Source: Promethearchaeota archaeon (GTDB taxonomy: Archaea > Asgardarchaeota > Thorarchaeia > Thorarchaeales > Thorarchaeaceae). Taken from it: 34,735 nucleotides of DNA. The stretch covers positions 1 through 34,735 of the forward strand of contig JBHLPB010000001.1 in the NCBI GenBank assembly GCA_048939905.1, given 5' to 3'. A model generated the notes under the pieces. The model was not told the origin of the DNA, ran no database searches, and worked only from the letters and a program-made list of their open reading frames with translations. The position numbers and the translations under genes were made by a program. This document shows positions 9,438 through 29,426 of the stretch, piece by piece (position 1 is the first letter of the stretch; the number at the start of each line of letters is the position of its first letter).

Positions 9438-9476
9438 TTTGATAGACCAGACTGTTTCATATGAGCGGTGCTGAGC

Positions 9477-16400: not shown

Positions 16401-19400
16401 CTAACCAGTGGCGGCTGTGACGGAGAGGTATTCCGAGAAGTCATAGAGTTTGACGTTCTCTGGCATCACCATATCTTCCTCCAAGTATTCCGCAGCAGTC
16501 AACACACCGATTATTCGGGTTGACTTGCATGTTCTGCATGCCACCTCGCTATGAATATGGAGCAGGGTATTCAGCTGTTGTTGGTTTGGGAATATAACAT
16601 ACGAAACATCATTGTAGCACAGATCAAAGTATCCGTGACTCCGTTCGACTTCATTTCCTTGTCTACTAAGATCCTTCTCTAGAGCACCTATGACTGAATC
16701 CTTGAACTCTTTCAACATGGCAGAATTGACAATCCAAAGCCCTTCATGGAGTTTCACAAATCTAGGCTTCTCACCTACACGAAGAGCTATGAGGACCTCA
16801 TCGGCCAGCAATTCTGTCAGTGCGCGTTTCCCTTCTTCAACACCGAGTGGAGTTGAGTTCCCCTTGACGGACTGCATTGCAGTTGTTTCAATGAACTCCA
16901 ACAGGACGTCCCACTGTATCTTGCCATCTGACAAATCAACAAAATCTTGGATTAGCTGAAACCACAGACGCATCTGAATAGCACGATTCGTTGCTGATCC
17001 AATATCATGCATCGCTCCAATCAAACCTACCTGTTCAGCCTTGGGAATGTCATCGCCGAGTTTTGCCTGTTCAGATGATGCGGTCGATTCAGTACCTGAT
17101 AGCACCCGCGGAAACAGATTTTCAATCATTGTGTCCAGTGAGCTCGGAAAGGCCGATATGACTGTCACGGGATTGAAGTCCTCCGACCCACTCATTATCT
17201 CCCTCAGCTTCGCAGCTACCACACTTCCTCTCACAATCAGTATAAGCTCAGCTACATTGTTACCTAGGCTTGTCATATATTCGCGAGTCTTGTCAAGCAT
17301 TAATCCCATAGATGATGCTTTCACGTGTTCTGGCAATATCAGAATCGCTTTGTCTTCAATCAGAATCCCAGATCCATCATCTATGTCTTCCTCTCGACTG
17401 ATTCCGAAAAGCTCCAGTTTGTCCATGATATAGCCAGCAATTGCATCTCTTACTGCCCGCAGGCCCCGACCTGGTAATGTGAACACAAAACCTCCGGGAA
17501 CTAGGGAAAGGGCTTCTCTATCAACAGTTCCCAAGGACACCAGATCTCGAATAACCTCATGGATATCTTCTTCTTCCATTCTAGAATCAATCGACCCCAG
17601 AAGCCCTTGTATCTCAATTTGGGTGGCAGAGTCTCTTGATGCAAGAAACGCTACGACATGCGACCCTAGTTCTCCCAATCTGTCAAAGACTGAACTTGCA
17701 TCCCCCTCCGAATCTGCTTCTTCCGATACAACAACAGCCGTATCTTCATAATGTGGTCGTTCCGGCAAGTCAAGTGACTCTCTAGTCAGTGCCTTCTTGC
17801 GTGATTCTGGAGCAAAGGGCCAAGTAGCTAGTTCAAAGGTTTCAATGCCAGGCATGACGATAAGCGCTCTCCCACGCTTCATTGTTCTCAGATACTTCTC
17901 CTGACTATTGTCGAGGGACATGAATCTCGCACCCACGATGCTATCATATGGGAGACGAAATGTCACCTTTGTAGCAGTATTCGCAAGTATGTTGGAAGAA
18001 ACGTTGGGTCTTGTCGAAACAACTATGACTCCCTGCCCAGTTGCTCTCTGAAGCATAACCATTGACTCACCTGTAGTCACATCTGCGGCAGAATGTCTAG
18101 CATAGCTCTCTGGTACAAGATTGCTGGCTTCTTCGAGAACAACCACATGATGGAGACCATCTCTGATGCCTCTTTGAAGTGCGTAGTCGAAGATACGCTT
18201 TGCAATCAAGTTATACAACAGTCTAGCGGCCTCCATGCCGCCTGTTCTTGCAACATGCTGAAGATCAAGAATCACACGCTTGTTCATCAACTCGGAGATC
18301 TTCACTGCATTGGGCCCACCGCCAAGAATCGAACCAAGTGGCTCTCGTGAGAGTATCTCCAGACGATTCGTTACTGCATCACGAGTCATTCCACCAATTC
18401 GATCCTTGCCTGCTAAATCATAGATTGCATCAAGGAGGCTCTGAACCGAGTTTCCTTTCTCCTGCTCCTCTGCAACTCTAAGAACTGCGTTTCGCAAGAG
18501 CTTCTCCATTGCCGGGGATAGTTCTGAGGTGGTTCCTCTCTCAGTAAGCACTTCTCTTAGTATCGCAAATGTCGTATGTGCGTGCCTCTTGAGAGAGTCG
18601 ACCTCGGAATCCATGAAGTCCATCACAAACGATGAGTCGATCCCAGGCCGTAGTACAAGTATCTCTCCATCACATGCGTCCAAGAGGTCTACATAGTCAG
18701 ATCCCTTGATATCAAACACCCACCAAGGTGTCTTTGACTTCCTGCTCAATTCTGCCATAAGGTGTTTGACGAGAGTTGTCTTTCCAGTACCTGTTGCTCC
18801 AAGGACAGCTACATGTTCTCGCAGCCATTCCGTCCTGAGTCCGACAATGTTCAAACGACGCCCACCAAAGACAGCCTGGCCAATCTTCAACTCATTGTCT
18901 ACTAATTCCTTGGCAGGTACTGGGAAGTCGGGAATTTGAGAAGCAGCTATCACAGGCAACTGCTGAACGGGCGTATTCACAAAGGCGACCAACCTACTAA
19001 CATGAATTCTCTGTCGTGTCATGTGCCGACGCAGAAGCATTCGCAAGGCAGTCTTCTTTCTAATTGCCTTTTTCTTCAACCGAATGTTGTCACCGTCACC
19101 CCATATTGAGTGAACTAGTCCGGTAACCCGTTCCTGAATCTCTTGCATGCGTACTGAGGCATCAGACTTCATCAATATGTGGACAGTCGTGTCAAACCAG
19201 CCGGCACTGCTTTGAATCTCTTCATAATGACGTACGAGCTTCCTCTTCCTAGATTGATCAGCTAGTGAGTCCTCTTTCCGTTTCTCTTTCTCACGAATCG
19301 TGCTCCACTGTCTTTCCATTCTCCTCTGCTCTCTTCCTGGCTTTGCTTTCGAGAAAACACAGGAGAAGACCACGTCGCATCCCTGTTTCAATGCTGTAGA

Positions 19401-20174
19401 GATGAATGTACCCACTTGGGAACTCTCTGCCAAGGGCAGAACACGTGGTTCTCCTGTGAGTACCATCAAGCCGTTTCTATCCGTTTCAAAAGAAAGGCCA
19501 GAATCGCCGTCGAACTCGGCATCAATCAGTCTTAGTGACGCTTCTCTGAGGTCCTCACCTTTAAGCTGATGTAGTTCGATGTTATTCAAGGAGGCTAACA
19601 GAATTGCCTCCGTCCGGGTTGCTTCTCTCTTCAACAACTCAGCAATCTCATCTAGAGCCCTTCCCGATGCAGTAATGAAGATACGCAGATAGGGTTCACC
19701 ATTCAAGACGCCCACCTCGTACGTCATATTCACACGTCCATCCATCCCGGCACGCAGTGCAAGCAGGAAACCCGCATCGTATTCTGGACGTTCACTCTCT
19801 CCGATACGGACAGAGCCCGGAACAGATGTGATGTCAAGGCAACACACAGCAACCACGTGCTGATGTAGTCGCAGAACGAGTAAATCGTTGACAATTTCCA
19901 TTAGAGTCTGTTCTGAGAGCAATCTCTGTGTCAGCACGAAGCACCCCGTGGACAGAGGCACTCCACAAACAAAGATCTCCACTATAGACCTGAATGGAAT
20001 CGACACTGAATTCACGAAACCTGCCAGAGGGAGTACATACACAAGAAGGAGATAGAGTGCACAGCACACAGTCCCCAGAATCCAAGTCAATTCTATTCCA
20101 CGCCATAGCCTCGGATGGATTTCCCAATGTGCTTCTTCTCTCATGTCTTCCCTATGCAGATTCTCACTAGACAT
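16401..20174 (-). CDS. giant (1257 aa) membrane-anchored HerA/FtsK-superfamily (DUF87-like) P-loop ATPase with long uncharacterised N- and C-terminal regions
   Basis: ATG start. 2-3 TM helices at aa ~27-82, then ~350 aa of unknown fold with a K/R-rich stretch. HerA-type core: NIVGLRTEWLREHVAVLGATGTGKTT (Walker A, nt 18781-18800), HHVVVLEEAS (Walker B, ~nt 18123-18152), VIVVSTRPNVSSNILANTATKVTFRL (Arg-finger region). The ~470-aa C-terminal extension contains a wHTH-like segment (QIEIQGLL...VIRDLVSLGTVDRE). Confidence 0.8.
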   Translation of the reverse strand: MSSENLHREDMREEAHWEIHPRLWRGIELTWILGTVCCALYLLLVYVLPLAGFVNSVSIPFRSIVEIFVCGVPLSTGCFVLTQRLLSEQTLMEIVNDLLVLRLHQHVVAVCCLDITSVPGSVRIGESERPEYDAGFLLALRAGMDGRVNMTYEVGVLNGEPYLRIFITASGRALDEIAELLKREATRTEAILLASLNNIELHQLKGEDLREASLRLIDAEFDGDSGLSFETDRNGLMVLTGEPRVLPLAESSQVGTFISTALKQGCDVVFSCVFSKAKPGREQRRMERQWSTIREKEKRKEDSLADQSRKRKLVRHYEEIQSSAGWFDTTVHILMKSDASVRMQEIQERVTGLVHSIWGDGDNIRLKKKAIRKKTALRMLLRRHMTRQRIHVSRLVAFVNTPVQQLPVIAASQIPDFPVPAKELVDNELKIGQAVFGGRRLNIVGLRTEWLREHVAVLGATGTGKTTLVKHLMAELSRKSKTPWWVFDIKGSDYVDLLDACDGEILVLRPGIDSSFVMDFMDSEVDSLKRHAHTTFAILREVLTERGTTSELSPAMEKLLRNAVLRVAEEQEKGNSVQSLLDAIYDLAGKDRIGGMTRDAVTNRLEILSREPLGSILGGGPNAVKISELMNKRVILDLQHVARTGGMEAARLLYNLIAKRIFDYALQRGIRDGLHHVVVLEEASNLVPESYARHSAADVTTGESMVMLQRATGQGVIVVSTRPNVSSNILANTATKVTFRLPYDSIVGARFMSLDNSQEKYLRTMKRGRALIVMPGIETFELATWPFAPESRKKALTRESLDLPERPHYEDTAVVVSEEADSEGDASSVFDRLGELGSHVVAFLASRDSATQIEIQGLLGSIDSRMEEEDIHEVIRDLVSLGTVDREALSLVPGGFVFTLPGRGLRAVRDAIAGYIMDKLELFGISREEDIDDGSGILIEDKAILILPEHVKASSMGLMLDKTREYMTSLGNNVAELILIVRGSVVAAKLREIMSGSEDFNPVTVISAFPSSLDTMIENLFPRVLSGTESTASSEQAKLGDDIPKAEQVGLIGAMHDIGSATNRAIQMRLWFQLIQDFVDLSDGKIQWDVLLEFIETTAMQSVKGNSTPLGVEEGKRALTELLADEVLIALRVGEKPRFVKLHEGLWIVNSAMLKEFKDSVIGALEKDLSRQGNEVERSHGYFDLCYNDVSYVIFPNQQQLNTLLHIHSEVACRTCKSTRIIGVLTAAEYLEEDMVMPENVKLYDFSEYLSVTAATG

Positions 20175-20407: not shown

Positions 20408-22405
20408 ATGATGCCCAGCAAGATCATCGAGGTGTTACCCCTGAGGAGGCCTACTCTAGCTGTAATCCTTGTAATTGCGCTGTCAATTGTCTTCTCACTG
20501 ACAAATGCAGAGGATGCAATTGCAGAGGAGGATTCCATTGTACTAAGAGGGAGTCTAGTACCTATCGGTGCAAGACTTCTTCAGAATGGCTCTTACGGAG
20601 AGCCTGTAAGTGGGCAGCGTTTGGATTTCTACGATTGTCTGCTTAACTCGTTCATAGGCTCTTCATTGACAGACAACGATGGCCGCGTCTTGATATACTG
20701 GAATCTCACTTTCAATCACCCACTTGGTCCTACCCTTCTCAATGTGACTTTCCAAGGCAACGATACACTCTCTCTTGCTCCATCGTGTCAGTGGACAACC
20801 GTGACAGTTGTGTCAGCAACGCACATAGACTTAGAATACACCCAACAAATCTACCACCCTGGAGACCAAATCCCAATCTTGGTCGAACTTTTCGATGACC
20901 AACGCGAAGCTATCGCGAACGGATTGATAGCCATCTATCATGATGATGTTCTACTTGCTGCAGACCACACAAATGAAACTGGTCAAGTCATATTCAACAT
21001 AGGCTGTAACACATCTTGGTGCTCTCTAGGCAACAACGAAATCAAAGTGGTCTATGAACCAGCTACGTCGAAACATCACAACAGATCTGAGCATTTCATT
21101 ATGGTTGAAGTACAACAGATTCTAACATCAATCGGATTGCAGGATATGAATGGGACCCAGCTCCAGCTAGACGAGTTCCTATGGTTGAAGTTGAATGTGA
21201 GTGCTGAGGGTGAGGGCCTTCCTAATGCCAATCTGAGTGTTCTCATGGATGAGAACTTCCTTTCCAGTACCACAACTAGTCCATTCGGAGTGACTGAGCA
21301 ACTAGTGCACATTGATTACTTGTCGGGCTTAGGTCCGCATAGAGTAAGAATAGAGTATGGTGGCACAGAGCGTTATACGGCCGCTTATCTTGAAGTAGAC
21401 ATTGTAGTGAAAAGCCCAGCCATGGTTTCCATGATGTTGCCAGACTACACAATCCTTGGAGATGAATCTCAGATACAGCTGGAGGTTCACGATTCACTTG
21501 GTAGACCAATCCCAGGAGTCCACATCGCTATCCATGATGAATCCACGAATGAAACAATTAGCATTCCTGTACCGCTCGGATACACGAACACCGAATTCCA
21601 GTATGTCTTCACAGGCCCAACAGGTATCAGAAATCTAATGGCCACAGTATCAGGGAATCCTTATCTCACAAATACAACCCAACTACTTCCTGTGACTGTT
21701 TGGCTTAAGCCAATCATTTCGATTATCGAAACCAACATTCACGGCTATGCGTCCCCCGGACAAGGACTCTCATTTCGTGTCCAGCTGAACTCGAGCGCAA
21801 GTTGCCTTCCGAATCGACTTATCGAGGCCTGGATAAACGACACAGTTCTACCATCTAGAATCACTGATTCACACGGATTTGCGAACGTAACACTATTCGC
21901 CCCTGAAATCCAAGGTCGGTATGTTCTACTTCTGAAGATAAACGGCAGTTTGCCCTCCTATGAACTTTCATCAGTTCTTGAATATGCTCTCGTTGTGAGC
22001 AGAGTAATGCCTGTGCAGGTTGACCTGATACACTACATAGTCAGTCCGGAACTCAGAGAAGTCCGGGTCTATCTCATGATAAGATGTCTGAATGGCACAG
22101 TATTGGATGGAGTGACACTAAACTACGAATGGCTAGCCATCAGCGGATTCACAGTTGCCACGCAATCCGGTATAGCAGAACTCATTCTTCCCATGCCCCC
22201 AAGTGCGGGTGTCTATAGGTTATACCATTACACAGACGGCACGCAGTACCTTCATCCATCTTCGGGACACACTCTTATCGTGGTGTCTGAAGCAGAATTC
22301 CAAGCGGCACAAGGCATTGGAATACCAGGTCTGGTACTGACTCTCTGTGTTTCAGTCGGTCTTGTCGGCATTCCAGCACTATATCGGAAACACCTGATAA
22401 GCTAG
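20408..22405 (+). CDS. large secreted/anchored surface protein with Ig-like beta-repeat modules, heavily N-glycosylation-sequon-rich
   Basis: 665 aa. N-terminal signal/anchor (PTLAVILVIALSIVFSL). Repeated ~90-100-aa beta-rich modules. I count about 17 N-x-S/T sequons. C-terminus IPGLVLTLCVSVGLVGIPALYRKH is a PGF-CTERM-like tripartite anchor (P-G-L, helix, basic). Confidence 0.7.
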   Translation: MMPSKIIEVLPLRRPTLAVILVIALSIVFSLTNAEDAIAEEDSIVLRGSLVPIGARLLQNGSYGEPVSGQRLDFYDCLLNSFIGSSLTDNDGRVLIYWNLTFNHPLGPTLLNVTFQGNDTLSLAPSCQWTTVTVVSATHIDLEYTQQIYHPGDQIPILVELFDDQREAIANGLIAIYHDDVLLAADHTNETGQVIFNIGCNTSWCSLGNNEIKVVYEPATSKHHNRSEHFIMVEVQQILTSIGLQDMNGTQLQLDEFLWLKLNVSAEGEGLPNANLSVLMDENFLSSTTTSPFGVTEQLVHIDYLSGLGPHRVRIEYGGTERYTAAYLEVDIVVKSPAMVSMMLPDYTILGDESQIQLEVHDSLGRPIPGVHIAIHDESTNETISIPVPLGYTNTEFQYVFTGPTGIRNLMATVSGNPYLTNTTQLLPVTVWLKPIISIIETNIHGYASPGQGLSFRVQLNSSASCLPNRLIEAWINDTVLPSRITDSHGFANVTLFAPEIQGRYVLLLKINGSLPSYELSSVLEYALVVSRVMPVQVDLIHYIVSPELREVRVYLMIRCLNGTVLDGVTLNYEWLAISGFTVATQSGIAELILPMPPSAGVYRLYHYTDGTQYLHPSSGHTLIVVSEAEFQAAQGIGIPGLVLTLCVSVGLVGIPALYRKHLIS

Positions 22406-22416
22406 AGAAGTGAATC

Positions 22417-22527
22417 TGGTGCTCCGGCCGGGATTTGAACCCGGGTCGGGGGATCGAGAGTCCCCCATGCTGGGCCGGACTACACACGGCTACATCACGA
22501 TGATTCTCATGACATATCTACCGGAGC
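22417..22527 (-). tRNA. tRNA-Glu (anticodon CUC), CCA-encoded, with a ~30-35-nt insertion (non-canonical intron candidate) between acceptor stem and D-arm
   Basis: Minus strand reads GCTCCGG-[TAGATATGTCATGAGAATCATCGTGATGTAGCC]-GTGTGTAGTCCGGCCCAGCAT-G-GGGGA-CTCTCGA-TCCCC-CGAC-CCGGG-TTCAAAT-CCCGG-CCGGAGC-A-CCA. Apart from the insertion it matches the archaeal tRNA-Glu body. A second GCTCCGG at 22542-22548 is an alternative 5' end. Confidence 0.8.
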
Positions 22528-22631: not shown

Positions 22632-22832
22632 CTAGGGAAACAGATTGGTGAAACTACTCCAACTGTCCTCCAGTAGCTGTAGAAGACTTCCTATGATGTC
22701 TTGTGCCCAACCAGTAGCCTGAAGGATAACTGCGATGACTATAGACACAGTGACCACTGCAAGACCCAAGAGGAGACTCTCTTCCACCAAAGGGCCACCT
22801 GATTCGTCTGCGATGAGGTCTCTCTCGTTCAT
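22632..22832 (-). CDS. Flp/Fap-like type IV prepilin (class III signal peptide)
   Basis: 66 aa from ATG 22832 (the track ORF starts at TTG 22862). MNERDLIADESGG|PLVEESLLLGLAVVTVSIVIAVI parallels the Flp leader ...FLKDESG|ATAIEYGLI..., with Gly at the cleavage site, Glu at mature +5, then a hydrophobic helix. Lies 39 nt downstream of the secretion ATPase. Confidence 0.55.
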   Translation of the reverse strand: MNERDLIADESGGPLVEESLLLGLAVVTVSIVIAVILQATGWAQDIIGSLLQLLEDSWSSFTNLFP

Positions 22833-22901: not shown

Positions 22902-24599
22902 CTACATTCCCAGGGACAGCATTGGGTGGCCTTCTCCCCATAAACGGTCACTCAAGGAGGGGCTGGGACCTGCATATGACGAGCTCCTCTCGTGTTCTAG
23001 ACACGTTAGAATTGCCTCATAAGCAGGAACATGACTTTCAAGTCCTATCCGATGTGCATGAAACATGAACGCACCATCCTGCGCCCATCTGACAGATTCA
23101 GGGTTTCGCCAATCGTATAGCGTATTGAGGCCAGAGAACACAAGGAACCCATCGACAACTTCTTTCCGGATCTCAACAATCTGGTTCACTCGCCGATATG
23201 ACTTGCCGGGTATCGGTCTTTCCATTGTGACAATCAAATCTATCAGAGCCACATTTGTCTTCTCTATCCCGTGTCCTGAAGTCCATCGAGCCACGAGGCT
23301 TGCTGCAGAATCACTGTGACATGTCTGCATTACCCTAAGTCCGGCTGCGATAGCTTGGAAGAGTGCTTCACTGTGTTCAGCTGTCTGTATCTCACCGAGA
23401 ACGAGATAGTCAGGGGATCGATGAAGGCTCTTGACTATCTCCGACGTCTTGTCAAACCTGTTGCTAATCTCATCTACGGGGTCGACCCGAATTCGGACTT
23501 GGTGGTGATTTGAGAAGACTCTACTCTCAATCGCATCTTCGATGTATATCTTCCTCCACATTGATGGCGTACTCATATCTAGGGCGTTTAGCAAGGTCGT
23601 CTTTCCTGTACCTGGACCTCCCGTTATGGTTATGTTAAATCTGGAACCGACAGCTAACGCCAAGGCCGCGGCAGCTTTCAACCCAAGCGTTCCATTTAGT
23701 ACAAGATTCATGATCGAGAATGGGGTTTCCTTCGCTCGCCGAATCTCCAGATGCACACCGTCGGGACTTAGTGGCGGCGTACTGATAGCTAGACGCAAAG
23801 CTACGTCGTAGAGTCGGAGATTGGTCTTGAGTGAAGGATTCCTTCTGTCCAGATGTAGGTTGCTTTCAGCTCTTACCAGGGTGGCCAGACGCGCGACGTC
23901 GTTCTTGTCTATGACAATATCAGAAGAACATCTCCCGAAACGCTGATGGTCAAAATAGACTGGAACTCCAGGTCGGTCCACATAGACCTCCTCCACTCCA
24001 TCATCCAACAGAATCGGAAGAAACCGTCCTAACACCGATGTCCGACCAGCTACGACGTTCGCTATTCTCTCTCGCGTAGTTTCGCTTATTTCTGGTAATG
24101 TCTGTACAATTCTAGCTGAAACACACTCAGATACATGCTGAAGTCTTTCTGACAGCTCCATTCTGACACTTGGCATGCCCTCTGTGAGTTTCTGTAGATC
24201 ATCACTGAGCCTGTCCAGCAGTCCAAATTCAAGGGGGCTTCTTACCAAAGGGTGAGTTCTATGGAGGATGCCACTCTCACCAATCCTGTCAAAGAAGAGA
24301 GAGAGATAGGGGCCAATGGTGTAGACATCCATGAGCTTGAGATGCGAATCAAGCAGCTGAGCGTAATCATAGATGAAGACTGTTTCCCAATCGTTTCCTT
24401 TCCATGGTGGCCCAACCGGAACCTGCTCTTCAAGACCCCCCACATGAACCAAGTTCTTTTCTGGCTCTAGCATCACGGCCTTGGACTGATTATCATTCGT
24501 AAGAGAGGCAAGTCTGGAGCATGTGGACAACGAGGAGTCTAGACACTCCTTGCACCTTTCTTCCGGGCATCTGAAAACAACCACGTCACATCTCGACAT
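22902..24599 (-). CDS. type II/IV secretion-system ATPase (PilB/FlaI/TadA/VirB11 family) with N-terminal Cys-rich extension
   Basis: 565 aa with ATG start. EVYVDRPG, GVHLEIRR, Walker A ITITGGPGTGKTTLLNAL, Walker B/Asp box KIYIEDAIE, RSPDYLVLGEIQT, His box GLRVMQTCHS. N-terminus has C-x7-C-x4-C-x2-C. Confidence 0.85.
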   Translation of the reverse strand: MSRCDVVVFRCPEERCKECLDSSLSTCSRLASLTNDNQSKAVMLEPEKNLVHVGGLEEQVPVGPPWKGNDWETVFIYDYAQLLDSHLKLMDVYTIGPYLSLFFDRIGESGILHRTHPLVRSPLEFGLLDRLSDDLQKLTEGMPSVRMELSERLQHVSECVSARIVQTLPEISETTRERIANVVAGRTSVLGRFLPILLDDGVEEVYVDRPGVPVYFDHQRFGRCSSDIVIDKNDVARLATLVRAESNLHLDRRNPSLKTNLRLYDVALRLAISTPPLSPDGVHLEIRRAKETPFSIMNLVLNGTLGLKAAAALALAVGSRFNITITGGPGTGKTTLLNALDMSTPSMWRKIYIEDAIESRVFSNHHQVRIRVDPVDEISNRFDKTSEIVKSLHRSPDYLVLGEIQTAEHSEALFQAIAAGLRVMQTCHSDSAASLVARWTSGHGIEKTNVALIDLIVTMERPIPGKSYRRVNQIVEIRKEVVDGFLVFSGLNTLYDWRNPESVRWAQDGAFMFHAHRIGLESHVPAYEAILTCLEHERSSSYAGPSPSLSDRLWGEGHPMLSLGM

Positions 24600-24650
24600 T
24601 TTCTCTCAGCTCAGACAGATGACACATAGTGGGTCAGTCAAGAACTATAC

Positions 24651-25691
24651 CTAAGTATGCTCAGTGAGTACAACAATCTCCCTCTTCATCATCCCAAAGT
24701 GATCACGGATACTGTACTCCGCTACCTTCGTCGCATCGGATGTAAGCTTCTGAGTGAGTACTGAGCGTTTTCCGTGCTCATCTGCAATCAATCGGTCACT
24801 AGCATAAGCCGCAGAAACTGTGAATATGAATGGATTCCGACCGCCTCTTCTCGAGGCCGGTATGATTCCAAGAATCTCAAGCATCTTGTCCCTTAGTGCG
24901 TTCTCATAGGTTCTCAAGTCCCAACCCCGAGCCCGTATCTTTCTTACGACTTTGTCGCTATTCATCAACATCGAGAGAACTCTTGGTACATAGTCCTCCG
25001 GACGACGAATCTGAGGAGCAATGCCTGTCAGTGATTTGAGCTTCAATGCTTCTCTGACTATAGCTCTGACATTCACCCGATGGCCGCACTTCTCGAATGT
25101 ACTAGCTATCTCATCCAGCGTTATCGGTGCACCATCTTTGTACTCACGAACAGCCATAAGCAGACATACTGCAATGAGTAGGATGTTGTTCGTAATCTTA
25201 GTGGACGCTTCCGTGACTATCTTCTTGTAGAGGTATGCAGTACGATCACGCACTTGTTCACTCAACATCAACAACTTCGAAACATGATTGAGCGTTCGGA
25301 GAGCCCTGTATTTTGCCTCGTTTCTACCTATTCTTATTCGTGTACTATAGACCGCTTTTAGACGCTTGAATCTCTTTTGCGATCTCGCTGATAGAGTCTG
25401 CCCCTGTGCATCCTGAAAGTACTTCTCTTTGTGAAAACCAATGTAGCTTCCAAGTCCATCCACGATGTGCATCCGATTACCCAAGGAAACATAGACAGTT
25501 GCATCAGGCTTGTCACTGTGCCGTTCCTCGCCCATTTGATAAGTGGGCAGGACATACTCTCTGGAAATGGCCAGTCCGCACTCTGCACAGACTATGTACC
25601 CCTGGTTCACCACTAGCAGTCCTGAACAGTCAGGACAAGACCACGATGAGCTCTGAATAGCCTCGAATGTTTCATCAATCAAAGACCACAC
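24651..25691 (-). CDS. tfb: transcription initiation factor B (TFIIB-like), divergent paralog
   Basis: 346 aa with GTG start. N-terminal Zn ribbon CPDCSG...CAECG followed by two cyclin-like helical repeats (AKYRALRTLNHVSKLL...; PEDYVPRVLSML...). Ends 51 nt upstream of the ATPase gene on the same strand. Confidence 0.8.
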   Translation of the reverse strand: MWSLIDETFEAIQSSSWSCPDCSGLLVVNQGYIVCAECGLAISREYVLPTYQMGEERHSDKPDATVYVSLGNRMHIVDGLGSYIGFHKEKYFQDAQGQTLSARSQKRFKRLKAVYSTRIRIGRNEAKYRALRTLNHVSKLLMLSEQVRDRTAYLYKKIVTEASTKITNNILLIAVCLLMAVREYKDGAPITLDEIASTFEKCGHRVNVRAIVREALKLKSLTGIAPQIRRPEDYVPRVLSMLMNSDKVVRKIRARGWDLRTYENALRDKMLEILGIIPASRRGGRNPFIFTVSAAYASDRLIADEHGKRSVLTQKLTSDATKVAEYSIRDHFGMMKREIVVLTEHT

Positions 25692-25744
25692 CCAAAGACA
25701 ACGTGCACATTATCGCTAACTAGATTTCAGGCAGGTGCCAGTAC

Positions 25745-25758
25745 GTTTCCTAGGAAAC
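25745..25758. promoter_or_regulatory. perfect 14-bp palindrome GTTTCCTAGGAAAC in the tfb / membrane-protein divergent intergenic region
   Basis: Self-complementary 14-mer, 54 nt upstream of the tfb start. A second inverted repeat, GTCACCG-n8-CGGTGAC, lies at 25828-25849. Confidence 0.35.
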
Positions 25759-25927
25759 AATGTTCGCTGAAATGGACTCTTGATATCTCACAGTCGACGA
25801 TTCTGGCCCTGACTGACAGAAAGAGGGGTCACCGTAACTATTCGGTGACAATCACTGGAGATGACCAATCCTACCCTCTTAGGTTACGATTTTAAGTATG
25901 AGATGAAGGAAACAGACCGATACTACC

Positions 25928-26899
25928 ATGAACAAATACGCGATTGCTTTGATTGTCCTTGCCTGCGTGACTTCTATGGTAAGATTCGGTCACGTCTATC
26001 CTGATAGCTATGCCTATCTCAGCTATATCGACTATTTCGATGGTATCGGAAGTCTCGAAGACGTTTCTACTCCCTTCGCACTAAGACCTGTAATGCCCGT
26101 GGTGGTGTCACTACTAAATGGAGTACTGGACTCTTTCCTAATACTCTCTACTCTGAATCTTGGTTTCGTGTGCCTAATCAGTCTTGGAATGTTCAGGTAC
26201 GTGAAGAACTACCACCTAGATGAAAGGTCGGCCTTTTTGGCAGCGGCCATTTGCACCGTGTCATTCCCAGTTGCTTACTATGGTGCTGTGCCCCTAGTAG
26301 ACGCACTCGCCGTTCTCATAATGCTGCTGGTTGTCATAGGACAAATCGAAGGGAAGAGTGACTGGTTTGCTATGACCTTGCTTCTTTTTGGAGTCATTGT
26401 GAAGGAAGTGGTTCTTTTCATAGGGCTGTACTATGTGCTGAGGGAAATTGACGATTCAAGATTGGAGTCTGACCTTAAGACGGCTTTCTTGGTAGGAGTC
26501 AAGAAACTCTGGATAGTCGTACCAGCTTCGACACTTCACCTGGCCCTCAGGTTTCTGATATTTGGTGGGCTGGCAAATTCGCTTCATTTCCATCTTGGCA
26601 TCTTTGAATCATCATTGAGATTGATTCAGGTTGCAGGAGGTATAGGAATAACGTTTGTTCTGCCGATGACGATCCTCCTGATTACATTCAGAAGAGAGAA
26701 ATGCCAATCTTGGGGAACAGCAAAGAGGGACGCTCTGCTAGGATTCGTATCACTACTTCCCTTGGCCCTTCTGGGTCTGTTCTTCGCCTATTTCGATGCA
26801 CGATTCATATGGCCTCTCTATCTTCCACTGATACCAACAGTCGGCTGTTCAATCAGTATCCTGACTGGTTTGACCAGTCAGGATGAACCTATCATATAA
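25928..26899 (+). CDS. polytopic membrane protein (~9-10 TM), possibly GT-C-type glycosyltransferase-like
   Basis: 323 aa with ATG start, hydrophobic throughout. The first extracytoplasmic loop YPDSYAYLSYIDYFDG...PFALRPVMPVVV resembles the acidic D-x-Y loop plus Pro-rich TM2 entry of GT-C enzymes. The function call is weak. Confidence 0.6.
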   Translation: MNKYAIALIVLACVTSMVRFGHVYPDSYAYLSYIDYFDGIGSLEDVSTPFALRPVMPVVVSLLNGVLDSFLILSTLNLGFVCLISLGMFRYVKNYHLDERSAFLAAAICTVSFPVAYYGAVPLVDALAVLIMLLVVIGQIEGKSDWFAMTLLLFGVIVKEVVLFIGLYYVLREIDDSRLESDLKTAFLVGVKKLWIVVPASTLHLALRFLIFGGLANSLHFHLGIFESSLRLIQVAGGIGITFVLPMTILLITFRREKCQSWGTAKRDALLGFVSLLPLALLGLFFAYFDARFIWPLYLPLIPTVGCSISILTGLTSQDEPII

Positions 26900-27257
26900 T
26901 CGCTAGAAGGAACTTATCCGAGTCGAATGTCTTCCTCTGAGATGCGGCTGGCTTGCTGATTGTAAGAACCAGTCTTAGGCCTCCAATCGCACCAACGACT
27001 TCCAGACCCGCATCCTCCTTGATGCGGAATACCTTTCCTTCCGCATACAGCTTCGCATTTGGGCCTCTTGTAATTGGCTTGGAGTCTATCACTATGGTGA
27101 CTTCATCCTTGGGACTCATTGTGTCACAAAGGACTTCTGGAAGCTCCAAAACTACTCTGGCCCCCTCCTCCTTGCTGACCATGTTCAAGACTTTCAGTTT
27201 CCTAGTTTCAGTGTCCTCAATGGACTCGATTATGGTATTCTTTAGCCTGACCACCAT
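26892..27257 (-). CDS. rpo8: RNA polymerase subunit Rpo8 (Rpb8/RpoG-like), tentative
   Basis: 121 aa from ATG 27257; the ORF is open to 27374, but that start would overlap the neighbouring gene. By-eye collinearity with yeast Rpb8: VVLELPEVL..DEVTIVIDS vs LTLDINVELFPV..DSLTVTIAS; LYAEGKVFRI..EVVGAIGGLRLVL...DKFLLAI vs VMYGTAYKFEE..AVYYSFGGLLMRL...NAYLLIR. Confidence 0.45.
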   Translation of the reverse strand: MVVRLKNTIIESIEDTETRKLKVLNMVSKEEGARVVLELPEVLCDTMSPKDEVTIVIDSKPITRGPNAKLYAEGKVFRIKEDAGLEVVGAIGGLRLVLTISKPAASQRKTFDSDKFLLAII

Positions 27258-27329
27258 AGTACTCAGACGCTCCAATTCCTCAGAAGCAGAGGGCAGTCGG
27301 TCTTGAATTAAAGTTGTCGCTATAATCAT

Positions 27330-29426
27330 GTGGCGTTTTTTAGGGAATACAAGCACCAAGTTGCGGTGGGCCACTTGGAGAAAAGACCGCTGATTGCACT
27401 CATTGCCTCGGTTTCTGTTCTACTGTGCCTAGTCACACCCGTATGCGCATACTATTTCGAGTTTGACTACTTCGAACCGGACAAGCTAGTGTATGAGGTC
27501 GGAGAAACAATCAATATGGTCGCTAGGTTGACAGCAGATTTCAGCTCTCAAGGATGGTGCTACGTTTCCTTTGCTGTTACAACCGATCAAGGTCCAGTGT
27601 CTGACGATAGCTACTTCATTCCTTCATCCACCGAAGCGCAGTTCTTCAACTCATCCTACACAATAGTACCTGAGGACACCTCTCCTGGTCCTGGAGGCAC
27701 AGAGGCATACGTCATATTCACTGTTGAAATATATGACTCATACTCGCAGGGAAACGGCGATACGGTCCAGATAAACATCACAAGAGGATCTCTAGAAGTG
27801 AGTTCACTTTCACCGTTAAGCTTAGAATCCGGTGATAATACGACTCTGGTCTTCAAGATCGCCTCTACACATAATGACACTATTACATACGCGGATTCAC
27901 CCGTAACAGTTACACTACTCGATTCCTTCATGGTTCAGCTGTTCCAGGAACAGACCACAACCTCTTCAGATGGTATGGTTGATTTCAACTGGAATTCTTC
28001 AATGACACCTCCAGGGGATTACACCCTAGCGCTATCAAGCAATGGAACCGAGGATTTTCTTCCCTTCTCAGAGTCATTTCCGGTCACGGTGACACAACCT
28101 TCTTCCAACCTGACAGTGGTTGCCGCGCCGGTTTCGGTACATTGTCAGACTCCAGACGGGGCTCAAGTGGAATTCGTTGACATTTCTGCAGAGCAGCGAA
28201 ATAGAGAAGGAGTACCCATAACCGATAGCACAATCCTGTGGGAAACTGCTTTCTCGGCAGGTACCATGATTCACATCGGAAGTGGAATCTATCATGTATC
28301 CATCCCATTTGAAACAGAACCTGGACTTTCTCATGTCAACCTCACTGCAAACAATCCCCTGTACATGACCGAGTATGAAGGCATTGCAATCCAAGTCCTA
28401 CCTCGGCCTGTACAAATTACGTCAACAGAATCGGGCTGGGATGCACAACGTGGAGGTAACGTATCCATTGCTTTGGATGTGAATTCCGAGTGGTTACTCA
28501 ACCAGTCTATTCCGATACTGCTCAGAGATTCAGAAGGACAACTCGACACGTACACTTCAGTCAATGCCAACACACAGTCTGAGATTCTCCTCAGTATTGA
28601 GCAAGGCGCTTCTCTTGGTCTACACACAGTTACAGTTGAGATTGAAGACACGTCGTATCAGCCTACGGAACCCTCCAGTTTCGAGGTGTTTGTATACGGC
28701 ACAATCAGTGTCCAAATGGATATGGCGGTGGCGTATTATGCAGAAGAACTCGGCATAGCCCTGAATATAACAGATGACAACAGTCAGTCTGTGATCATGA
28801 CCAACCTCAGTCTATGGGTTGATAATCTGACGGTTCCTGTAGCCTATGTCGAGAACGTAGGCGTCTTATCTCCTGTGGAAGTCCTCCTGCCAAGTTCGGT
28901 TTCTCCAGGCTTGCATGACATGGTAGTGGATGTGGAGAGTACTTGGTGTGGAAGGGCCAATATATCAGTGCCAGTAGTGGTCTGGATGCGCACCAGCATT
29001 CTCGTCGTTGTGGGAGATGACTATGAGTCGCCGCAGATGTTAGAATCCAACCAACTCCCGTCGAATATTCAGACAGAACCAGTGATTCTCTCGACGATTT
29101 CCCTTGGTTCTATCATCCGTCCGCCTCCAATCTTAGTCAGCGATACAACATCCACCAAATTACCCACGGCCCGCGAAACTTCCCGAGAGAGCTGGCCCAG
29201 ACTCAGTTCAGGTACCAGCAAAGACTCGACGGACCCCGCGAACTCTGCCAGCTCAGCATCAGGGAAAGGCCAGAGCGTTCTCAACCTGAGGGACCTGATT
29301 TTCACAGAACTGTTTGTCATGACTTCCTCAACGGACCTGGACGTACACCCGTACGAAACGACTCCCCAATCTGCTGATTCCGGTCCAGACACCACTACGT
29401 CAGTCAGGAGCTCTCGTTCATTCTGA
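27330..29426 (+). CDS. large secreted surface protein with Ig-like beta-repeat modules, sequon-rich; 3' ~358 nt overlaps korA antisense
   Basis: 698 aa from GTG 27330. TTG 27375 gives a cleaner signal peptide, MEKRPLIALIASVSVLLCLVTPVCA|YY. I count about 14 N-x-S/T sequons. No C-terminal TM anchor. The last ~120 codons are S/T/P-rich and lie antisense to korA. Confidence 0.65.
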   Translation: MAFFREYKHQVAVGHLEKRPLIALIASVSVLLCLVTPVCAYYFEFDYFEPDKLVYEVGETINMVARLTADFSSQGWCYVSFAVTTDQGPVSDDSYFIPSSTEAQFFNSSYTIVPEDTSPGPGGTEAYVIFTVEIYDSYSQGNGDTVQINITRGSLEVSSLSPLSLESGDNTTLVFKIASTHNDTITYADSPVTVTLLDSFMVQLFQEQTTTSSDGMVDFNWNSSMTPPGDYTLALSSNGTEDFLPFSESFPVTVTQPSSNLTVVAAPVSVHCQTPDGAQVEFVDISAEQRNREGVPITDSTILWETAFSAGTMIHIGSGIYHVSIPFETEPGLSHVNLTANNPLYMTEYEGIAIQVLPRPVQITSTESGWDAQRGGNVSIALDVNSEWLLNQSIPILLRDSEGQLDTYTSVNANTQSEILLSIEQGASLGLHTVTVEIEDTSYQPTEPSSFEVFVYGTISVQMDMAVAYYAEELGIALNITDDNSQSVIMTNLSLWVDNLTVPVAYVENVGVLSPVEVLLPSSVSPGLHDMVVDVESTWCGRANISVPVVVWMRTSILVVVGDDYESPQMLESNQLPSNIQTEPVILSTISLGSIIRPPPILVSDTTSTKLPTARETSRESWPRLSSGTSKDSTDPANSASSASGKGQSVLNLRDLIFTELFVMTSSTDLDVHPYETTPQSADSGPDTTTSVRSSRSF

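What the first reader, a model, noticed from the sequence alone, without database searches (positions are those of the whole stretch)
16401..20174. 1257-aa membrane-anchored HerA/FtsK-superfamily ATPase with about 800 aa of unassigned sequence
The central ~350 aa are a clear HerA/DUF87-type P-loop module (LREHVAVLGATGTGKTT, HHVVVLEEAS, VSTRPNVSSNILANTATKVTFRL). The architecture is unusual: 2-3 N-terminal TM helices, then ~350 aa of unknown fold with a highly basic stretch (REQRRMERQW..EKEKRKEDSLADQSRKRK). The C-terminal ~470 aa include a winged-helix-like segment and two further globular regions. TM helices followed by an FtsK/HerA ATPase is the topology of VirD4/TraG coupling proteins and of the large TraG-like proteins of crenarchaeal conjugative plasmids. 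HerA-like ATPases also power NurA-type and defence-type systems. The gene is divergently paired with a 665-aa surface protein and sits next to a tRNA gene. It is a good candidate core motor of an undescribed DNA or protein translocation or defence module.
Basis: partly seen in the sequence, partly recalled or inferred. Interest (0 to 1): 0.7.

Follow-up and report, generated by a model that had tools for sequence, protein, structure and literature searches.

The report
Membrane-anchored VirB4-like ATPase of Asgard archaea

Summary
The ORF (16401-20174, minus strand, 1257 aa) is real. It has two N-terminal TM helices and an intact HerA/DUF87-type P-loop domain. The "unassigned" N-terminal 345 aa fold with good confidence (pLDDT 83.5). 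By Foldseek they match only the N-terminal domain of TrwK/VirB4 of the R388 type IV secretion system (14 hits, E 7e-8 to 1e-6; next hit E 1e-3). The architecture is therefore TM hairpin, complete VirB4-type NTD, HerA-clade ATPase, then a lineage-specific C-terminus of two winged-helix modules, each followed by a small alpha/beta domain. This is the CedB/CedD/VirB4 type, not the VirD4/TraG type. The gene is a syntenic chromosomal core gene in about 60 Thorarchaeota species. Relatives at 25-30% identity occur in Hel-, Loki-, Baldr-, Ran- and Hodarchaeia. Across these classes it repeatedly sits near a small pilin-like protein. Several lineages add Ig-like surface proteins, a type-IV-pilus-class ATPase, a divergent TFIIB paralog and, in Thorarchaeota, an Rpo8-like gene. 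That block resembles the enigmatic "subclade 4D" system of Thermoproteales. The best reading is the motor of a domesticated T4SS-like (Ced/Ted-like) envelope machine. The substrate, DNA or pilin, is not established. Defence and mobile-element readings are not supported. It is a new variant of a known kind.

The parts
16401..20174 (-). VirB4-like membrane ATPase gene, 1257 aa plus stop
   Evidence: ORF. 100%/90%/86% homologues annotated only as 'ATP-binding protein' in Promethearchaeota/Thorarchaeota MAGs.
19929..20096 (-). Two N-terminal TM helices (residues about 27-50 and 63-82): a membrane hairpin with an inferred N-in/C-in topology. It is possibly VirB3-like.
   Evidence: Hydropathy peaks of 2.49 and 1.89. 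N-terminal TM segments are present in most distant relatives. The VirB3 analogy is inference only.
18885..19919 (-). VirB4-type N-terminal domain (residues 86-430). It includes the basic helical hairpin at about 280-320.
   Evidence: AF2 model: pLDDT 83.5, pTM 0.81. Foldseek against PDB: top 14 hits are all TrwK/VirB4 (7o42, 7o41, 8rtd, 8rtb, 7o43), E 6.6e-8 to 1e-6, TMq 0.49-0.55, about 390 aligned columns; the next hit is E 1.2e-3.
17820..18884 (-). HerA-clade P-loop ATPase domain (residues about 431-785). Walker A 459-466, Walker B 675-684 (LEEA), TRP motif 721-723.
   Evidence: Pfam DUF87 E 1.5e-14. Best NCBIfam hits are CedD, HerA_antiphage and VirB4, all far below cutoff. The family profile hits PDB HerA 8wiv at 2.9e-5 and no VirB4. 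The motifs are invariant between the Thor and Hel branches.
17100..17696 (-). C-terminal module 1 (residues 827-1025): winged helix plus a small alpha/beta domain
   Evidence: AF2 model with pLDDT about 80-90 in this part. Foldseek gives only weak winged-helix matches: Pol III subunit 8iue_P at 3.4e-4, MarR, PadR, HxlR.
16404..16997 (-). C-terminal module 2 (residues 1060-1257): winged helix plus an alpha/beta domain with invariant H1180, C1186, C1213, C1216 (possible Zn site)
   Evidence: Model. Invariant columns in the 24-sequence alignment. No significant fold or sequence match.
20408..22405 (+). Divergently transcribed 665-aa surface protein: signal/TM, Ig-like/CarboxypepD_reg-like repeats rich in N-glycosylation sequons, and a C-terminal TM anchor
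   Evidence: Conserved upstream of the ATPase gene in all Thor loci. A homologue (E 2e-29) lies 7-8 kb from the VirB4-like gene in Baldr-type loci L092/L097.
22632..22832 (-). Small pilin-like membrane protein (about 66 aa from the ATG): short charged leader, then GG|PLVEES plus a hydrophobic helix plus an amphipathic helix
   Evidence: The core is nearly invariant in 54 sequences. It has relatives near VirB4-like genes in Hel (L007, L071, L074) and Loki (L098, 0.5 kb upstream). The Hel form has a weak Pfam Flp1_like hit, E 0.047.
22902..24599 (-). Type-IV-pilus-class secretion ATPase (565 aa) with an N-terminal C-x4-C-x2-C-x7-8-C motif
   Evidence: Pfam T2SSE 7.8e-22. Best PDB hits: A. fulgidus GspE2 2oap at 1.2e-26, FlaI, CpaF; VirB11 only 28 bits. 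NCBIfam TadA family. The Cys motif is conserved.
24651..25691 (-). Divergent TFIIB/TFB paralog (346 aa): Zn ribbon plus one recognisable cyclin repeat
   Evidence: Pfam TFIIB repeat 2.9e-6, Zn_Ribbon_TF 0.006. NCBIfam TFIIB 60 bits against a cutoff of 384. 43% identical to the gene directly upstream of the Helarchaeota VirB4-like gene.
26892..27374 (-). Rpo8/RpbG-like small protein, upstream of the TFIIB paralog
   Evidence: Weak Pfam RNA_pol_RpbG hit, E 0.029. Conserved in position in Thor loci.
27330..29426 (+). Second Ig/MG2-like surface protein (698 aa)
   Evidence: Homologous (E 3e-11) to the Helarchaeota surface protein that precedes a VirB4-like gene in L074.
22417..22527 (-). tRNA-Glu(CUC) with a non-canonical intron of about 35 nt near the D-arm
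   Evidence: Rfam partial match, 30.7 bits. Manual reading of acceptor, T-arm, CCA and anticodon. Conserved in Thor loci.

Best explanation
The gene encodes the cytoplasmic-membrane motor of a chromosomally fixed machine derived from a type IV secretion system. It is comparable to the crenarchaeal Ced/Ted DNA-exchange systems.

Shown: a two-helix membrane hairpin tethers a complete VirB4-type N-terminal domain and a catalytically intact HerA-clade P-loop ATPase to the inner face of the membrane.

Inferred from the FtsK/HerA/VirB4 superfamily: the protein forms hexamers (or a hexamer of dimers) under a membrane channel and converts ATP hydrolysis into translocation.

Inferred from recurring gene neighbourhood in at least three Asgard classes: it works with the small pilin-like protein. 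It would extract or load this protein into a short conduit or pilus, as VirB4 does with VirB2. It also works with large Ig-like surface proteins.

In Thor- and Helarchaeia it is further coupled to a T4P-class ATPase and a TFIIB paralog. The T4P-class ATPase may mediate contact or adhesion, as Ups pili do for Ced. The TFIIB paralog may be a regulator, as TFB3 is for Ups/Ced.

The Thor-specific C-terminal pair of winged-helix modules is proposed to bind the nucleic-acid substrate or a partner, by analogy with the FtsK gamma domain.

The most likely cargo is DNA exchanged between cells. This last step is the least secure.
For: Architecture:
- TM hairpin.
- The N-domain model is confident and matches only VirB4/TrwK.
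- DUF87 ATPase with invariant Walker A, Walker B and the TRP motif.
- The best family-level sequence hits are CedD, HerA and VirB4.
- CedB/CedD show the same combination: TM, VirB4-like NTD and HerA-clade ATPase (PMC11868833).

Conservation and distribution:
- The whole length is conserved in more than 118 homologues.
- About 60 Thorarchaeota species carry it in fixed chromosomal synteny.
- The broader family carries Hel-, Loki-, Baldr-, Ran-, Hod- and Asgardarchaeia labels and mostly has N-terminal TM segments.

Linkage beyond plain synteny:
- The block Rpo8-TFIIB-T2SSE-small protein has been moved or inverted in L032, L054 and L052, yet stays within 4-7 kb.
- In Helarchaeota the TFIIB paralog (43% identical) lies directly upstream of the VirB4-like gene in three loci, with T2SSE 5-12 kb away.
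- The small-protein family is adjacent in Loki L098 and within about 2-2.5 kb in Hel L007, L071 and L074.
- Surface-protein homologues are adjacent or nearby in L074, L092, L097 and L099.
- Small 2-TM genes sit immediately upstream of VirB4-like genes in L074 and L092, as virB3 does.

C-terminus: two winged helices.
Against: - No VirB6/CedA-like polytopic channel protein was found in the conserved part of the locus. The 323-aa polytopic protein at 25928-26899 occurs only in close relatives.
- The small protein has a class-III/Flp-like leader with only one strongly hydrophobic helix, whereas VirB2/CedA1-type pilins are described with two transmembrane segments (PMC9905601). It may therefore belong to the T4P-class ATPase instead.
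- Sequence membership of VirB4, CedB and CedD fails by a wide margin.
- The ATPase domain is closer to HerA than to VirB4 by sequence.
- The C-terminal domains have no significant match, so DNA binding is conjecture.
- There is no relaxase, NurA, Rad50 or other DNA-processing gene in the locus.
- There are no expression or functional data of any kind.
Confidence: 0.45

Rival explanations
1. It is an accessory or second motor of a repurposed type-IV-filament machine, the Asgard version of the Thermoproteales 'subclade 4D' system. Together with the T4P-class ATPase it would assemble, anchor or secrete the small class-III-signal protein and the Ig-like surface proteins. The cargo would be protein, not DNA.
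For: - The small protein has a G|PxVEE class-III/Flp-like leader.
- The Hel form weakly matches Pfam Flp1_like.
- The adjacent ATPase is of the FlaI/CpaF/GspE2 type.
- T2SSF-like platform proteins lie near VirB4-like genes in L070, L092, L097 and L008.
- The Thor block matches the published 4D description: Rpo8, TFIIB paralog, and an ATPase with an N-terminal Cys domain (PMC4858521).
- Surface proteins are the most constant large neighbours.
Against: - No known type IV filament system uses a VirB4-type ATPase.
- The 4D system was described as lacking pilins and secreted proteins.
- In Loki L098 and in the Baldr-type loci no T2SSE ATPase lies within 10 kb of the VirB4-like gene.
- This reading does not explain the double winged-helix C-terminus.
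Confidence: 0.27
2. It is an FtsK-like chromosome translocase. A membrane-anchored pump ATPase with C-terminal winged helices would clear or segregate chromosomal DNA at division, or across the protrusions and contacts typical of Asgard cells.
For: - The domain order (TM, linker domain, FtsK/HerA-superfamily motor, winged helix) mirrors FtsK/SpoIIIE.
- It is a single conserved core chromosomal gene.
- It lies about 10-14 kb from Orc1/Cdc6 and RFC genes here. Cdc6-like genes flank relatives in L008 and L098.
Against: - The N-domain is VirB4-type, not an FtsK linker.
- The Pfam FtsK_SpoIIIE match is 16 bits and covers the P-loop only.
- The neighbours are envelope and surface genes, not division genes.
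- The winged-helix C-terminus is not detectably conserved outside Thorarchaeia.
Confidence: 0.12
3. It is a HerA-type anti-virus defence ATPase, or part of an integrated conjugative element.
For: - HerA-clade ATPase domain.
- PADLOC HerA/mad8 models hit the ATPase core, 31-47 bits.
- A tRNA gene is nearby.
Against: - There is no effector partner (Sir2, DUF4297, nuclease), no integrase and no relaxase.
- Base composition is uniform.
- The position is fixed between IPK/S10/GlmS and the Rpo8/TFIIB block in about 50 species.
- The tRNA is intact and conserved in place.
Confidence: 0.05

Closest known systems
VirB4 (TrwK of plasmid R388; PDB 7o41/7o42/8rtd), the conserved ATPase of type IV secretion/conjugation systems
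   Same: - The N-terminal domain fold matches along the whole 345-residue query: Foldseek E about 1e-7, TMq about 0.53.
- It is followed by a FtsK/HerA-superfamily ATPase.
- The Walker A motif sits about 430-460 residues into the protein, as in VirB4.
- The membrane association and small TM genes or segments immediately N-terminal recall VirB3-VirB4.
   Different: - Only 8-10% sequence identity in the NTD.
- It fails TIGR00929 (28 bits against a cutoff of 643).
- The ATPase domain is closer to HerA by sequence.
- It has its own two TM helices and a 470-aa C-terminal extension with two winged helices.
- It is chromosomal and vertically inherited, not plasmid-borne.
- No VirB6, VirB8, VirB10, VirD4 or relaxase partners were seen.
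CedB / CedD of the Sulfolobales Ced DNA-import system, and TedB of Thermoproteales
   Same: - TM segment(s), VirB4-like NTD and HerA-clade ATPase (PMC11868833).
- Chromosomal, 'domesticated' T4SS derivative (PMC9905601).
- CedD is the best NCBIfam hit.
- There is a system-level parallel: a T4P-class ATPase (UpsE-like), a pilin-like protein, a TFB paralog (TFB3-like), and Orc1/Cdc6 genes nearby.
   Different: - The CedD score is 38.8 bits against a cutoff of 600, and it covers the Walker A region only.
- CedB and CedD each carry only part of the VirB4 NTD, whereas this protein carries the whole fold.
- It is twice as long, with a winged-helix C-terminus.
- No CedA/VirB6-like partner was found.
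- The lineage is different (Asgard).
- The regulatory parallels are untested.
'Subclade 4D' T4P-like system of Pyrobaculum/Thermoproteus (Makarova et al. 2016, PMC4858521). This concerns the neighbouring genes, not the ATPase itself.
   Same: - An operon-like block of an Rpo8/RPB8 gene, a TFIIB homologue with a Zn finger and one recognisable cyclin repeat, and a secretion ATPase with an extra N-terminal Cys-rich domain.
- Function unknown.
   Different: - Direct homology to arCOG05558/05559 was not tested.
- The published system has a 4-5-TM protein and no pilin or secreted proteins. Here there is a one-TM pilin-like protein, surface proteins and a VirB4-like ATPase.
- A 2026 survey reports that type IV filament systems are rare in Asgard archaea (10.64898/2026.04.22.720090).
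HerA (archaeal DSB-repair helicase) and FtsK/SpoIIIE
   Same: - The same ATPase superfamily.
- A DUF87 match.
- FtsK-like order of TM, motor and winged helix.
   Different: - No HAS-barrel N-domain and no NurA/Mre11/Rad50 neighbours.
- The HerA equivalog models score 14-17 bits against cutoffs of 800-970.
- The FtsK Pfam model scores below its cutoff.

Membership tests
VirB4 family (T4SS ATPase) | VirB4-type N-terminal domain fold preceding the ATPase | tested here: met
   AF2 model pLDDT 83.5. Foldseek top 14 hits are all TrwK/VirB4, E 6.6e-8 to 1e-6, with the whole query aligned.
VirB4 family (T4SS ATPase) | FtsK/HerA-superfamily ATPase with intact Walker A and B | tested here: met
   GATGTGKT at 459-466, VVVLEEA at 677-683 and TRP at 721-723 are invariant in the Thor+Hel alignment. 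DUF87 E 1.5e-14.
VirB4 family (T4SS ATPase) | Sequence membership (TIGR00929 VirB4_CagE / Pfam CagE_TrbE_VirB) | tested here: not met
   TIGR00929 scores 28 bits against a cutoff of 643. There is no CagE_TrbE_VirB hit. The family profile finds no VirB4 chain in PDB at E<=0.1.
VirB4 family (T4SS ATPase) | Encoded with VirB2-like pilin, VirB3 and VirB6-like channel | tested here: inconclusive
   A small pilin-like gene is recurrently adjacent, and small 2-TM genes lie directly upstream in L074/L092. No conserved VirB6/CedA-like polytopic protein was found within +/-10 kb. The rest of the genome was not searched.
CedB / CedD (Ced DNA import) | Equivalog-level sequence similarity | tested here: not met
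   CedD 38.8 bits (cutoff 600); CedB 15.7 bits (cutoff 700).
CedB / CedD (Ced DNA import) | TM + VirB4-like NTD + HerA-clade ATPase architecture | tested here: met
   The difference is that the NTD here is complete, whereas CedB and CedD each hold a part of it (PMC11868833).
CedB / CedD (Ced DNA import) | DNA-damage-induced expression and requirement for DNA import | not testable with these tools
   No expression or genetic data are available.
HerA DSB-repair helicase | N-terminal HAS-barrel; operon with NurA/Mre11/Rad50 | tested here: not met
   The N-domain matches VirB4, not HerA structures. HerA equivalogs score 14-17 bits against cutoffs of 800-970. No NurA/Mre11/Rad50 genes are in the window.
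FtsK/SpoIIIE | FtsK_SpoIIIE motor domain; gamma winged helix | tested here: not met
   PF01580 scores 16.1 bits against a cutoff of 24 and covers the P-loop only. Winged helices are present, but they are not identifiable as an FtsK gamma domain.
   PF10412 scores 19.5 bits against a cutoff of 20.5, over residues 449-492 only. The region after the TM helices is a VirB4 NTD.
HerA-based anti-phage systems (PADLOC) | Full-length HerA model match plus a cognate effector gene | tested here: not met
   Only partial ATPase-core hits of <=47 bits; neighbours give no defence hits. The genomic position is that of a core gene.
Subclade 4D T4P-like system (neighbouring genes) | Secretion ATPase with N-terminal Cys domain + TFIIB homologue + RPB8 in one block | tested here: met
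   compared with the description in PMC4858521. The Rpo8 assignment rests on a weak hit (E 0.029).
Subclade 4D T4P-like system (neighbouring genes) | Orthology to arCOG05558/arCOG05559; 4-5-TM partner; no pilins | not tested
Here a pilin-like protein is present.

The most novel reading that the evidence does not exclude
Asgard archaea ancestrally carry a chromosomal, vertically inherited T4SS-derived machine. Its parts would be the VirB4-like motor, a pilin-like protein and Ig-like surface proteins. It would be wired to a T4P-class ATPase, a TFIIB paralog/Rpo8 module and, in some lineages, a Roadblock-small-GTPase module. The machine would mediate cell-cell DNA (or macromolecule) exchange through contacts or protrusions. 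That would be a dedicated inter-cellular transfer apparatus in the lineage that gave rise to eukaryotes, with the Thor-specific double winged-helix C-terminus acting as the DNA-handling adaptor.
Probability: 0.2. Interest if true: 0.85.

Novelty: new variant of a known kind. Interest (0 to 1): 0.62.

Why it matters
VirB4-type ATPases are the signature of conjugation and T4SS machines. In archaea they are known from conjugative plasmids and from the crenarchaeal Ced/Ted DNA-exchange systems. The paper library searched here contained no description of such a protein in Asgard archaea, and a 2026 survey finds type-IV-filament systems almost absent there.

This is a core, Asgard-wide family of membrane-anchored VirB4-like motors with conserved envelope partners. 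It would give a concrete, testable candidate for how these syntrophic, protrusion-forming cells exchange DNA or build contact structures. That question bears on gene flow and partner interaction during eukaryogenesis.

The work also links the long-unexplained 'subclade 4D' block (secretion ATPase, TFIIB, RPB8) to a second motor protein and extends it beyond Thermoproteales.

Tried and rejected
- Defence system: PADLOC gave only generic ATPase-core hits and no effector. Rejected.
- Mobile element or conjugative island: base composition is uniform, there is no integrase or relaxase, the synteny is fixed across about 50 species, and the nearby tRNA is intact and conserved. Rejected.
- VirD4/TraG coupling protein: only a sub-threshold P-loop match, and the N-domain is VirB4-type. 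Rejected.
- Internal duplication of the C-terminus, and homology between Thor and Hel C-termini: hhalign probabilities of 1.3% and 0.5%. Not supported, although the predicted secondary-structure order (winged helix, then alpha/beta) repeats.
- The separate 332-aa double winged-helix neighbour in L092 as a split version of the Thor C-terminus: hhalign probability 1%. Not supported.
- Fold identification of the C-terminus: PDB and BFVD searches returned only weak winged-helix matches.
- The Thermoproteota 'ATPase-only' relatives (L076-L084) as CedB/CedD: NCBIfam shows unclassified HerA-clade proteins, so no Ced link can be drawn from them.
- The 323-aa polytopic protein (25928-26899) as a VirB6/CedA or prepilin-peptidase candidate: no Pfam hit, and it is present only in close relatives. 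Left unassigned.
- A profile search with 20 distant relatives returned only 9 proteins.
- A metagenome scan with the Loki homologue found nothing.
- ARAGORN, with and without intron mode, missed the tRNA-Glu.

Full report
**Observation.** The window carries an uninterrupted 1257-codon ORF at 16401-20174 on the minus strand. Hydropathy analysis gives two strong N-terminal hydrophobic helices, at about residues 27-50 and 63-82. Pfam places a HerA-central/DUF87 domain at 431-611 (E 1.5e-14). All other P-loop families match only around the Walker A motif. The gene is divergent from a 665-aa protein with an N-terminal signal/TM and a C-terminal TM anchor. ARAGORN finds only tRNA-Gly(CCC) at 30331-30407. 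An intron-containing tRNA-Glu(CUC) lies at about 22417-22527 on the minus strand, just beyond the surface-protein gene.

**Organism and reality of the gene.** A near-identical protein, listed at 100% identity but differing at one residue, is annotated only as 'ATP-binding protein' in a Promethearchaeota MAG. All of the 120 best database hits listed are long (980-1292 aa) proteins at 52-90% identity, from Thorarchaeota or Promethearchaeota MAGs wherever a source names the organism. An alignment of 118 members shows conservation along the entire length. Variable linkers occur only at 211-240, 781-830 and 1021-1050. This is a real, selected, multi-domain protein.

**The N-terminal 'unknown' region is a VirB4 N-terminal domain.** Residues 86-430 were modelled with a 30-sequence alignment (Thor plus Helarchaeota relatives). 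The model has pLDDT 83.5 and pTM 0.81. Foldseek against the PDB returned 14 hits at E <= 0.001, and all are TrwK/VirB4 chains of the R388 type IV secretion system (7o42, 7o41, 7o43, 8rtb, 8rtd). They have E 6.6e-8 to 1e-6, TM-score 0.49-0.55 normalised to the query, and about 390 aligned columns, which covers the whole query. The next hit, an unrelated oxidase, is at E 1.2e-3.

**The ATPase is HerA-clade by sequence.**
- The best NCBIfam hits are CedD (38.8 bits), anti-phage HerA (32.7) and VirB4 (28), all far below their cutoffs.
- A Thor+Hel family profile finds HerA chains in PDB (8wiv, 2.9e-5) and no VirB4.
- The combination of TM segment, VirB4-like NTD and HerA-clade ATPase is the one reported for CedB and CedD of the Sulfolobales DNA-import system. 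In those proteins each paralog carries only part of the VirB4 NTD (PMC11868833).

**C-terminus.** Residues 815-1257 were modelled with 24 sequences, giving pLDDT 76 and pTM 0.46. The model shows these parts:
- a winged helix (827-921);
- a small alpha/beta domain (935-1025);
- a disordered linker;
- a second winged helix (1060-1171);
- a final alpha/beta domain (1176-1257) with invariant H1180, C1186, C1213 and C1216.

Foldseek against PDB and BFVD found only weak winged-helix matches: Pol III subunits, MarR, PadR, HxlR. Profile comparisons gave no significant result for an internal duplication, for homology with the equally long Helarchaeota C-termini, or for homology with a separate double winged-helix neighbour in another lineage. 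This part remains functionally unassigned. 'Two winged helices' is all that can be said.

**Distribution.** An exhaustive HMMER search of 1.84 billion cluster representatives with residues 86-1257 found nine full-length representatives at >= 42% identity. It then found a large set (355 at E <= 1e-10) of 25-32% identical proteins of 740-1440 aa that match only the N-domain plus ATPase. Most of these have N-terminal TM segments. The members that carry source names are from Helarchaeota, Lokiarchaeota, Baldrarchaeia, Ranarchaeia, Hodarchaeota and 'Asgardarchaeia'. A scan of GTDB species genomes returned about 60 Thorarchaeota-type loci with full-length matches (42-89%), then Helarchaeota relatives at 25-26%. 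The remaining archaeal matches (Ignisphaera, Sulfolobales and others) are ATPase-only. They proved to be unclassified HerA-clade proteins of about 470 aa, not CedB/CedD. The TM, VirB4-NTD and ATPase core is therefore an Asgard-wide family. The double winged-helix C-terminus is specific to the Thor branch as far as sequence can tell.

**Genomic context.** In about 50 Thor loci the order is:
1. POR;
2. Ig/MG2-like surface protein;
3. Rpo8-like gene;
4. TFIIB paralog;
5. T4P-class ATPase;
6. small pilin-like protein;
7. tRNA-Glu;
8. 665-aa surface protein (divergent);
9. VirB4-like gene;
10. isopentenyl-phosphate kinase;
11. ribosomal protein S10;
12. GlmS.

Base composition is uniform. There is no integrase, relaxase, nuclease or known defence partner. 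This is a core chromosomal position, which argues against a mobile element or a defence island.

Plain synteny among close relatives proves little, so more distant and rearranged cases were examined:
- In L032, L054 and L052 the Rpo8-TFIIB-ATPase-small-protein block has moved or inverted, yet it remains within 4-7 kb.
- In Helarchaeota, where S10/GlmS/IPK synteny is absent, a TFIIB paralog 43% identical to the Thor one lies directly upstream of the VirB4-like gene in L007, L070 and L071. A T4P-class ATPase (35% identical) lies 5-12 kb away, and the small-protein family is within about 2.3 kb in L007 and L071.
- In L074 a surface protein and a 120-aa hydrophobic protein directly precede a paralogous VirB4-like gene, and the small-protein family lies about 1.9 kb downstream of it.
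- In a Lokiarchaeota contig the small-protein family lies 0.5 kb upstream of the VirB4-like gene.
- In Baldr-type metagenomic loci a homologue of the 665-aa surface protein (E 2e-29) and a T2SSF-like platform protein lie 7-8 kb upstream. A 71-aa two-TM gene lies immediately upstream.

The small pilin-like protein and the Ig-like surface proteins are the most consistent partners. The TFIIB paralog and the T4P-class ATPase are partners in Thor and Hel.

**The partners.**
- *Small protein.* It is nearly invariant in its core ('GGPLVEESLLLGLAVVTVSIVIAVILQATGWAQ'). A short charged leader ends in G-G/S and is followed by PxVEE and a hydrophobic helix. This is the pattern of class III (type IV pilin/Flp) signal peptides, with Glu at +4/+5. 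Only the Hel form weakly matches Pfam Flp1_like (E 0.047).
- *565-aa ATPase.* It belongs to the FlaI/CpaF/GspE2 class: 2oap at 1.2e-26, with VirB11 only 28 bits. It has a conserved N-terminal C-x4-C-x2-C-x7-8-C motif.
- *Surrounding block.* Together with the Zn-ribbon/one-cyclin TFIIB paralog and the weakly recognisable Rpo8/RpbG gene, this reproduces the description of the unexplained 'subclade 4D' T4P-like system of Pyrobaculum/Thermoproteus. That system is a secretion ATPase with an extra Cys-rich N-domain, a TFIIB homologue and RPB8 in one operon (PMC4858521; 10.64898/2026.04.22.720090).

**How it most likely works.**
- Shown: membrane hairpin, VirB4-type NTD, intact ATPase motifs, two winged helices, and recurrent neighbours.
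- Inferred from the superfamily: ring oligomers at the inner face of the membrane that couple ATP hydrolysis to translocation.
- Inferred from context: cooperation with the small pilin-like protein and the surface proteins in an envelope machine. The nearest functional analogy is the Ced/Ted plus Ups arrangement of Crenarchaeota, which combines a VirB4-like motor, a pilin, a T4P for cell contact and a TFB paralog as activator.
- Cargo: I favour DNA as cargo, with the winged helices as the DNA- or partner-binding adaptor. Confidence is moderate (0.45 for the whole model).
- Main rival (0.27): the protein is a second motor of a repurposed type-IV-filament machine handling the small class-III-signal protein and the surface proteins.
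- Other rivals: an FtsK-like chromosomal translocase (0.12) fits the domain order and the nearby Orc1/Cdc6 and RFC genes, but not the VirB4 NTD or the envelope neighbours. Defence or mobile-element readings are disfavoured (0.05).

**Comparison with known families.** It works like, and is built like, VirB4/CedB/CedD. It fails every curated sequence threshold for VirB4, CedB, CedD, HerA and FtsK. No VirB6-like partner was found nearby. It differs from all described members in three ways: it combines its own TM hairpin with a complete VirB4 NTD, it has a HerA-clade ATPase, and it has a 470-aa double winged-helix extension. I therefore file it as a new variant of a known kind, the VirB4-type T4SS-derived ATPases, and not as a member of any named family.

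**Novelty and significance.** Full-text searches found no paper describing VirB4-like, Ced-like or HerA-type membrane ATPases in Asgard archaea. Database names are generic ('ATP-binding protein', 'DUF87 domain-containing protein'). A core, Asgard-wide T4SS-derived motor with conserved envelope partners would be a concrete handle on inter-cellular exchange or contact structures in the archaeal relatives of eukaryotes. It also ties the unexplained 4D block to a second motor.

**Limits.**
- There is no experimental evidence.
- The full-length protein exceeded the modelling limit, so inter-domain geometry and oligomerisation are untested.
- The C-terminal function, the class of the small protein (T4P-type or VirB2-type) and the cargo remain open.

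Noticed in passing
window 22417-22527 (-): tRNA-Glu(CUC) with a non-canonical insert of about 35 nt after the 5' acceptor strand (GCTCCGG TAG ... GTGTAGTCCGG...). ARAGORN misses it even in intron mode, and Rfam aligns only model positions 10-63. The 3' exon is 94-100% conserved at the same place in about 50 Thorarchaeota loci. A second GCTCCGG copy lies 21 nt upstream.
   Followed up: partly
window 22902-27374 (-): A block of an Rpo8/RpbG-like gene, a divergent TFIIB paralog, and a T4P-class ATPase with an N-terminal Cys motif. It mirrors the unexplained 'subclade 4D' system described only for Pyrobaculum/Thermoproteus. A recent survey states that type IV filament systems are nearly absent from Asgard archaea.
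   Followed up: partly
window 22632-22832 (-); L007 16498-16686; L098 about 9327-9506: A small protein of about 62-66 aa with an almost invariant core (GGPLVEESLLLGLAVVTVSIVIAVILQATGWAQ) and a class-III/Flp-like leader. It is conserved from Thor to Hel and Loki, always near the VirB4-like gene. Gene callers appear to annotate it inconsistently (67-69 aa).
   Followed up: partly
window 30630-31850 (+) and 32955-34157 (-); L008 12954-14511; L098 1688-3877: Orc1/Cdc6 and RFC-like AAA+ genes lie 10-14 kb from the VirB4-like gene. Cdc6-like plus HTH_5 genes also flank VirB4-like genes in two other Asgard lineages. This could be ancestral origin-proximal synteny or a regulatory link (compare Orc1-2 in the Sulfolobus DNA-damage response). 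It was not resolved.
   Followed up: no
L007 17565-21915; L071 9677-14074; L099 2009-6355; edges of L017, L045, L052: A module of a Roadblock/LC7 protein, a 300-aa protein, an Arf/Ras-like small GTPase and a surface protein of about 600 aa recurs near VirB4-like genes in Helarchaeota-type loci. It also appears next to the Thor locus in some genomes. It recalls MglA/MglB-type control of pili.
   Followed up: partly
window 16404-16650 (residues 1176-1257 of the ATPase): Invariant H1180, C1186, C1213, C1216 and an FPNQQQ motif in the last alpha/beta domain suggest a zinc site. The fold has no significant match in PDB or BFVD.
   Followed up: partly
window 25928-26899 (+): A 323-aa polytopic membrane protein (about 8-9 TM helices) without any Pfam match. 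It is present only in the closest relatives (L010-L012) and is inserted between the TFIIB paralog and the Rpo8-like gene.
   Followed up: partly
window 18129-18149 (Walker B, residues 676-682): The Walker B motif reads hhhhLEEA in Thor and E-D-A-Q in Hel. The usual first Asp is replaced by Glu throughout the family, and E681 is invariant.
   Followed up: no
L045/L049, L033/L051, L022/L059, L014/L057, L062/L065: Five MAGs carry two copies of the gene, at 52-59% identity to the query, with the second copy on a 2.8-5 kb contig and with the surface-protein gene upstream in four of the five. This more likely reflects co-binned strains than true paralogy.
   Followed up: no
L076-L084: Thermoproteota (Ignisphaera, Sulfolobales, Acidilobaceae, Desulfurococcaceae) encode HerA-clade ATPases of about 470 aa. 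They reach no NCBIfam cutoff (HerA, CedD) and are the nearest non-Asgard sequence relatives of the ATPase domain found by the pattern scan.
   Followed up: partly
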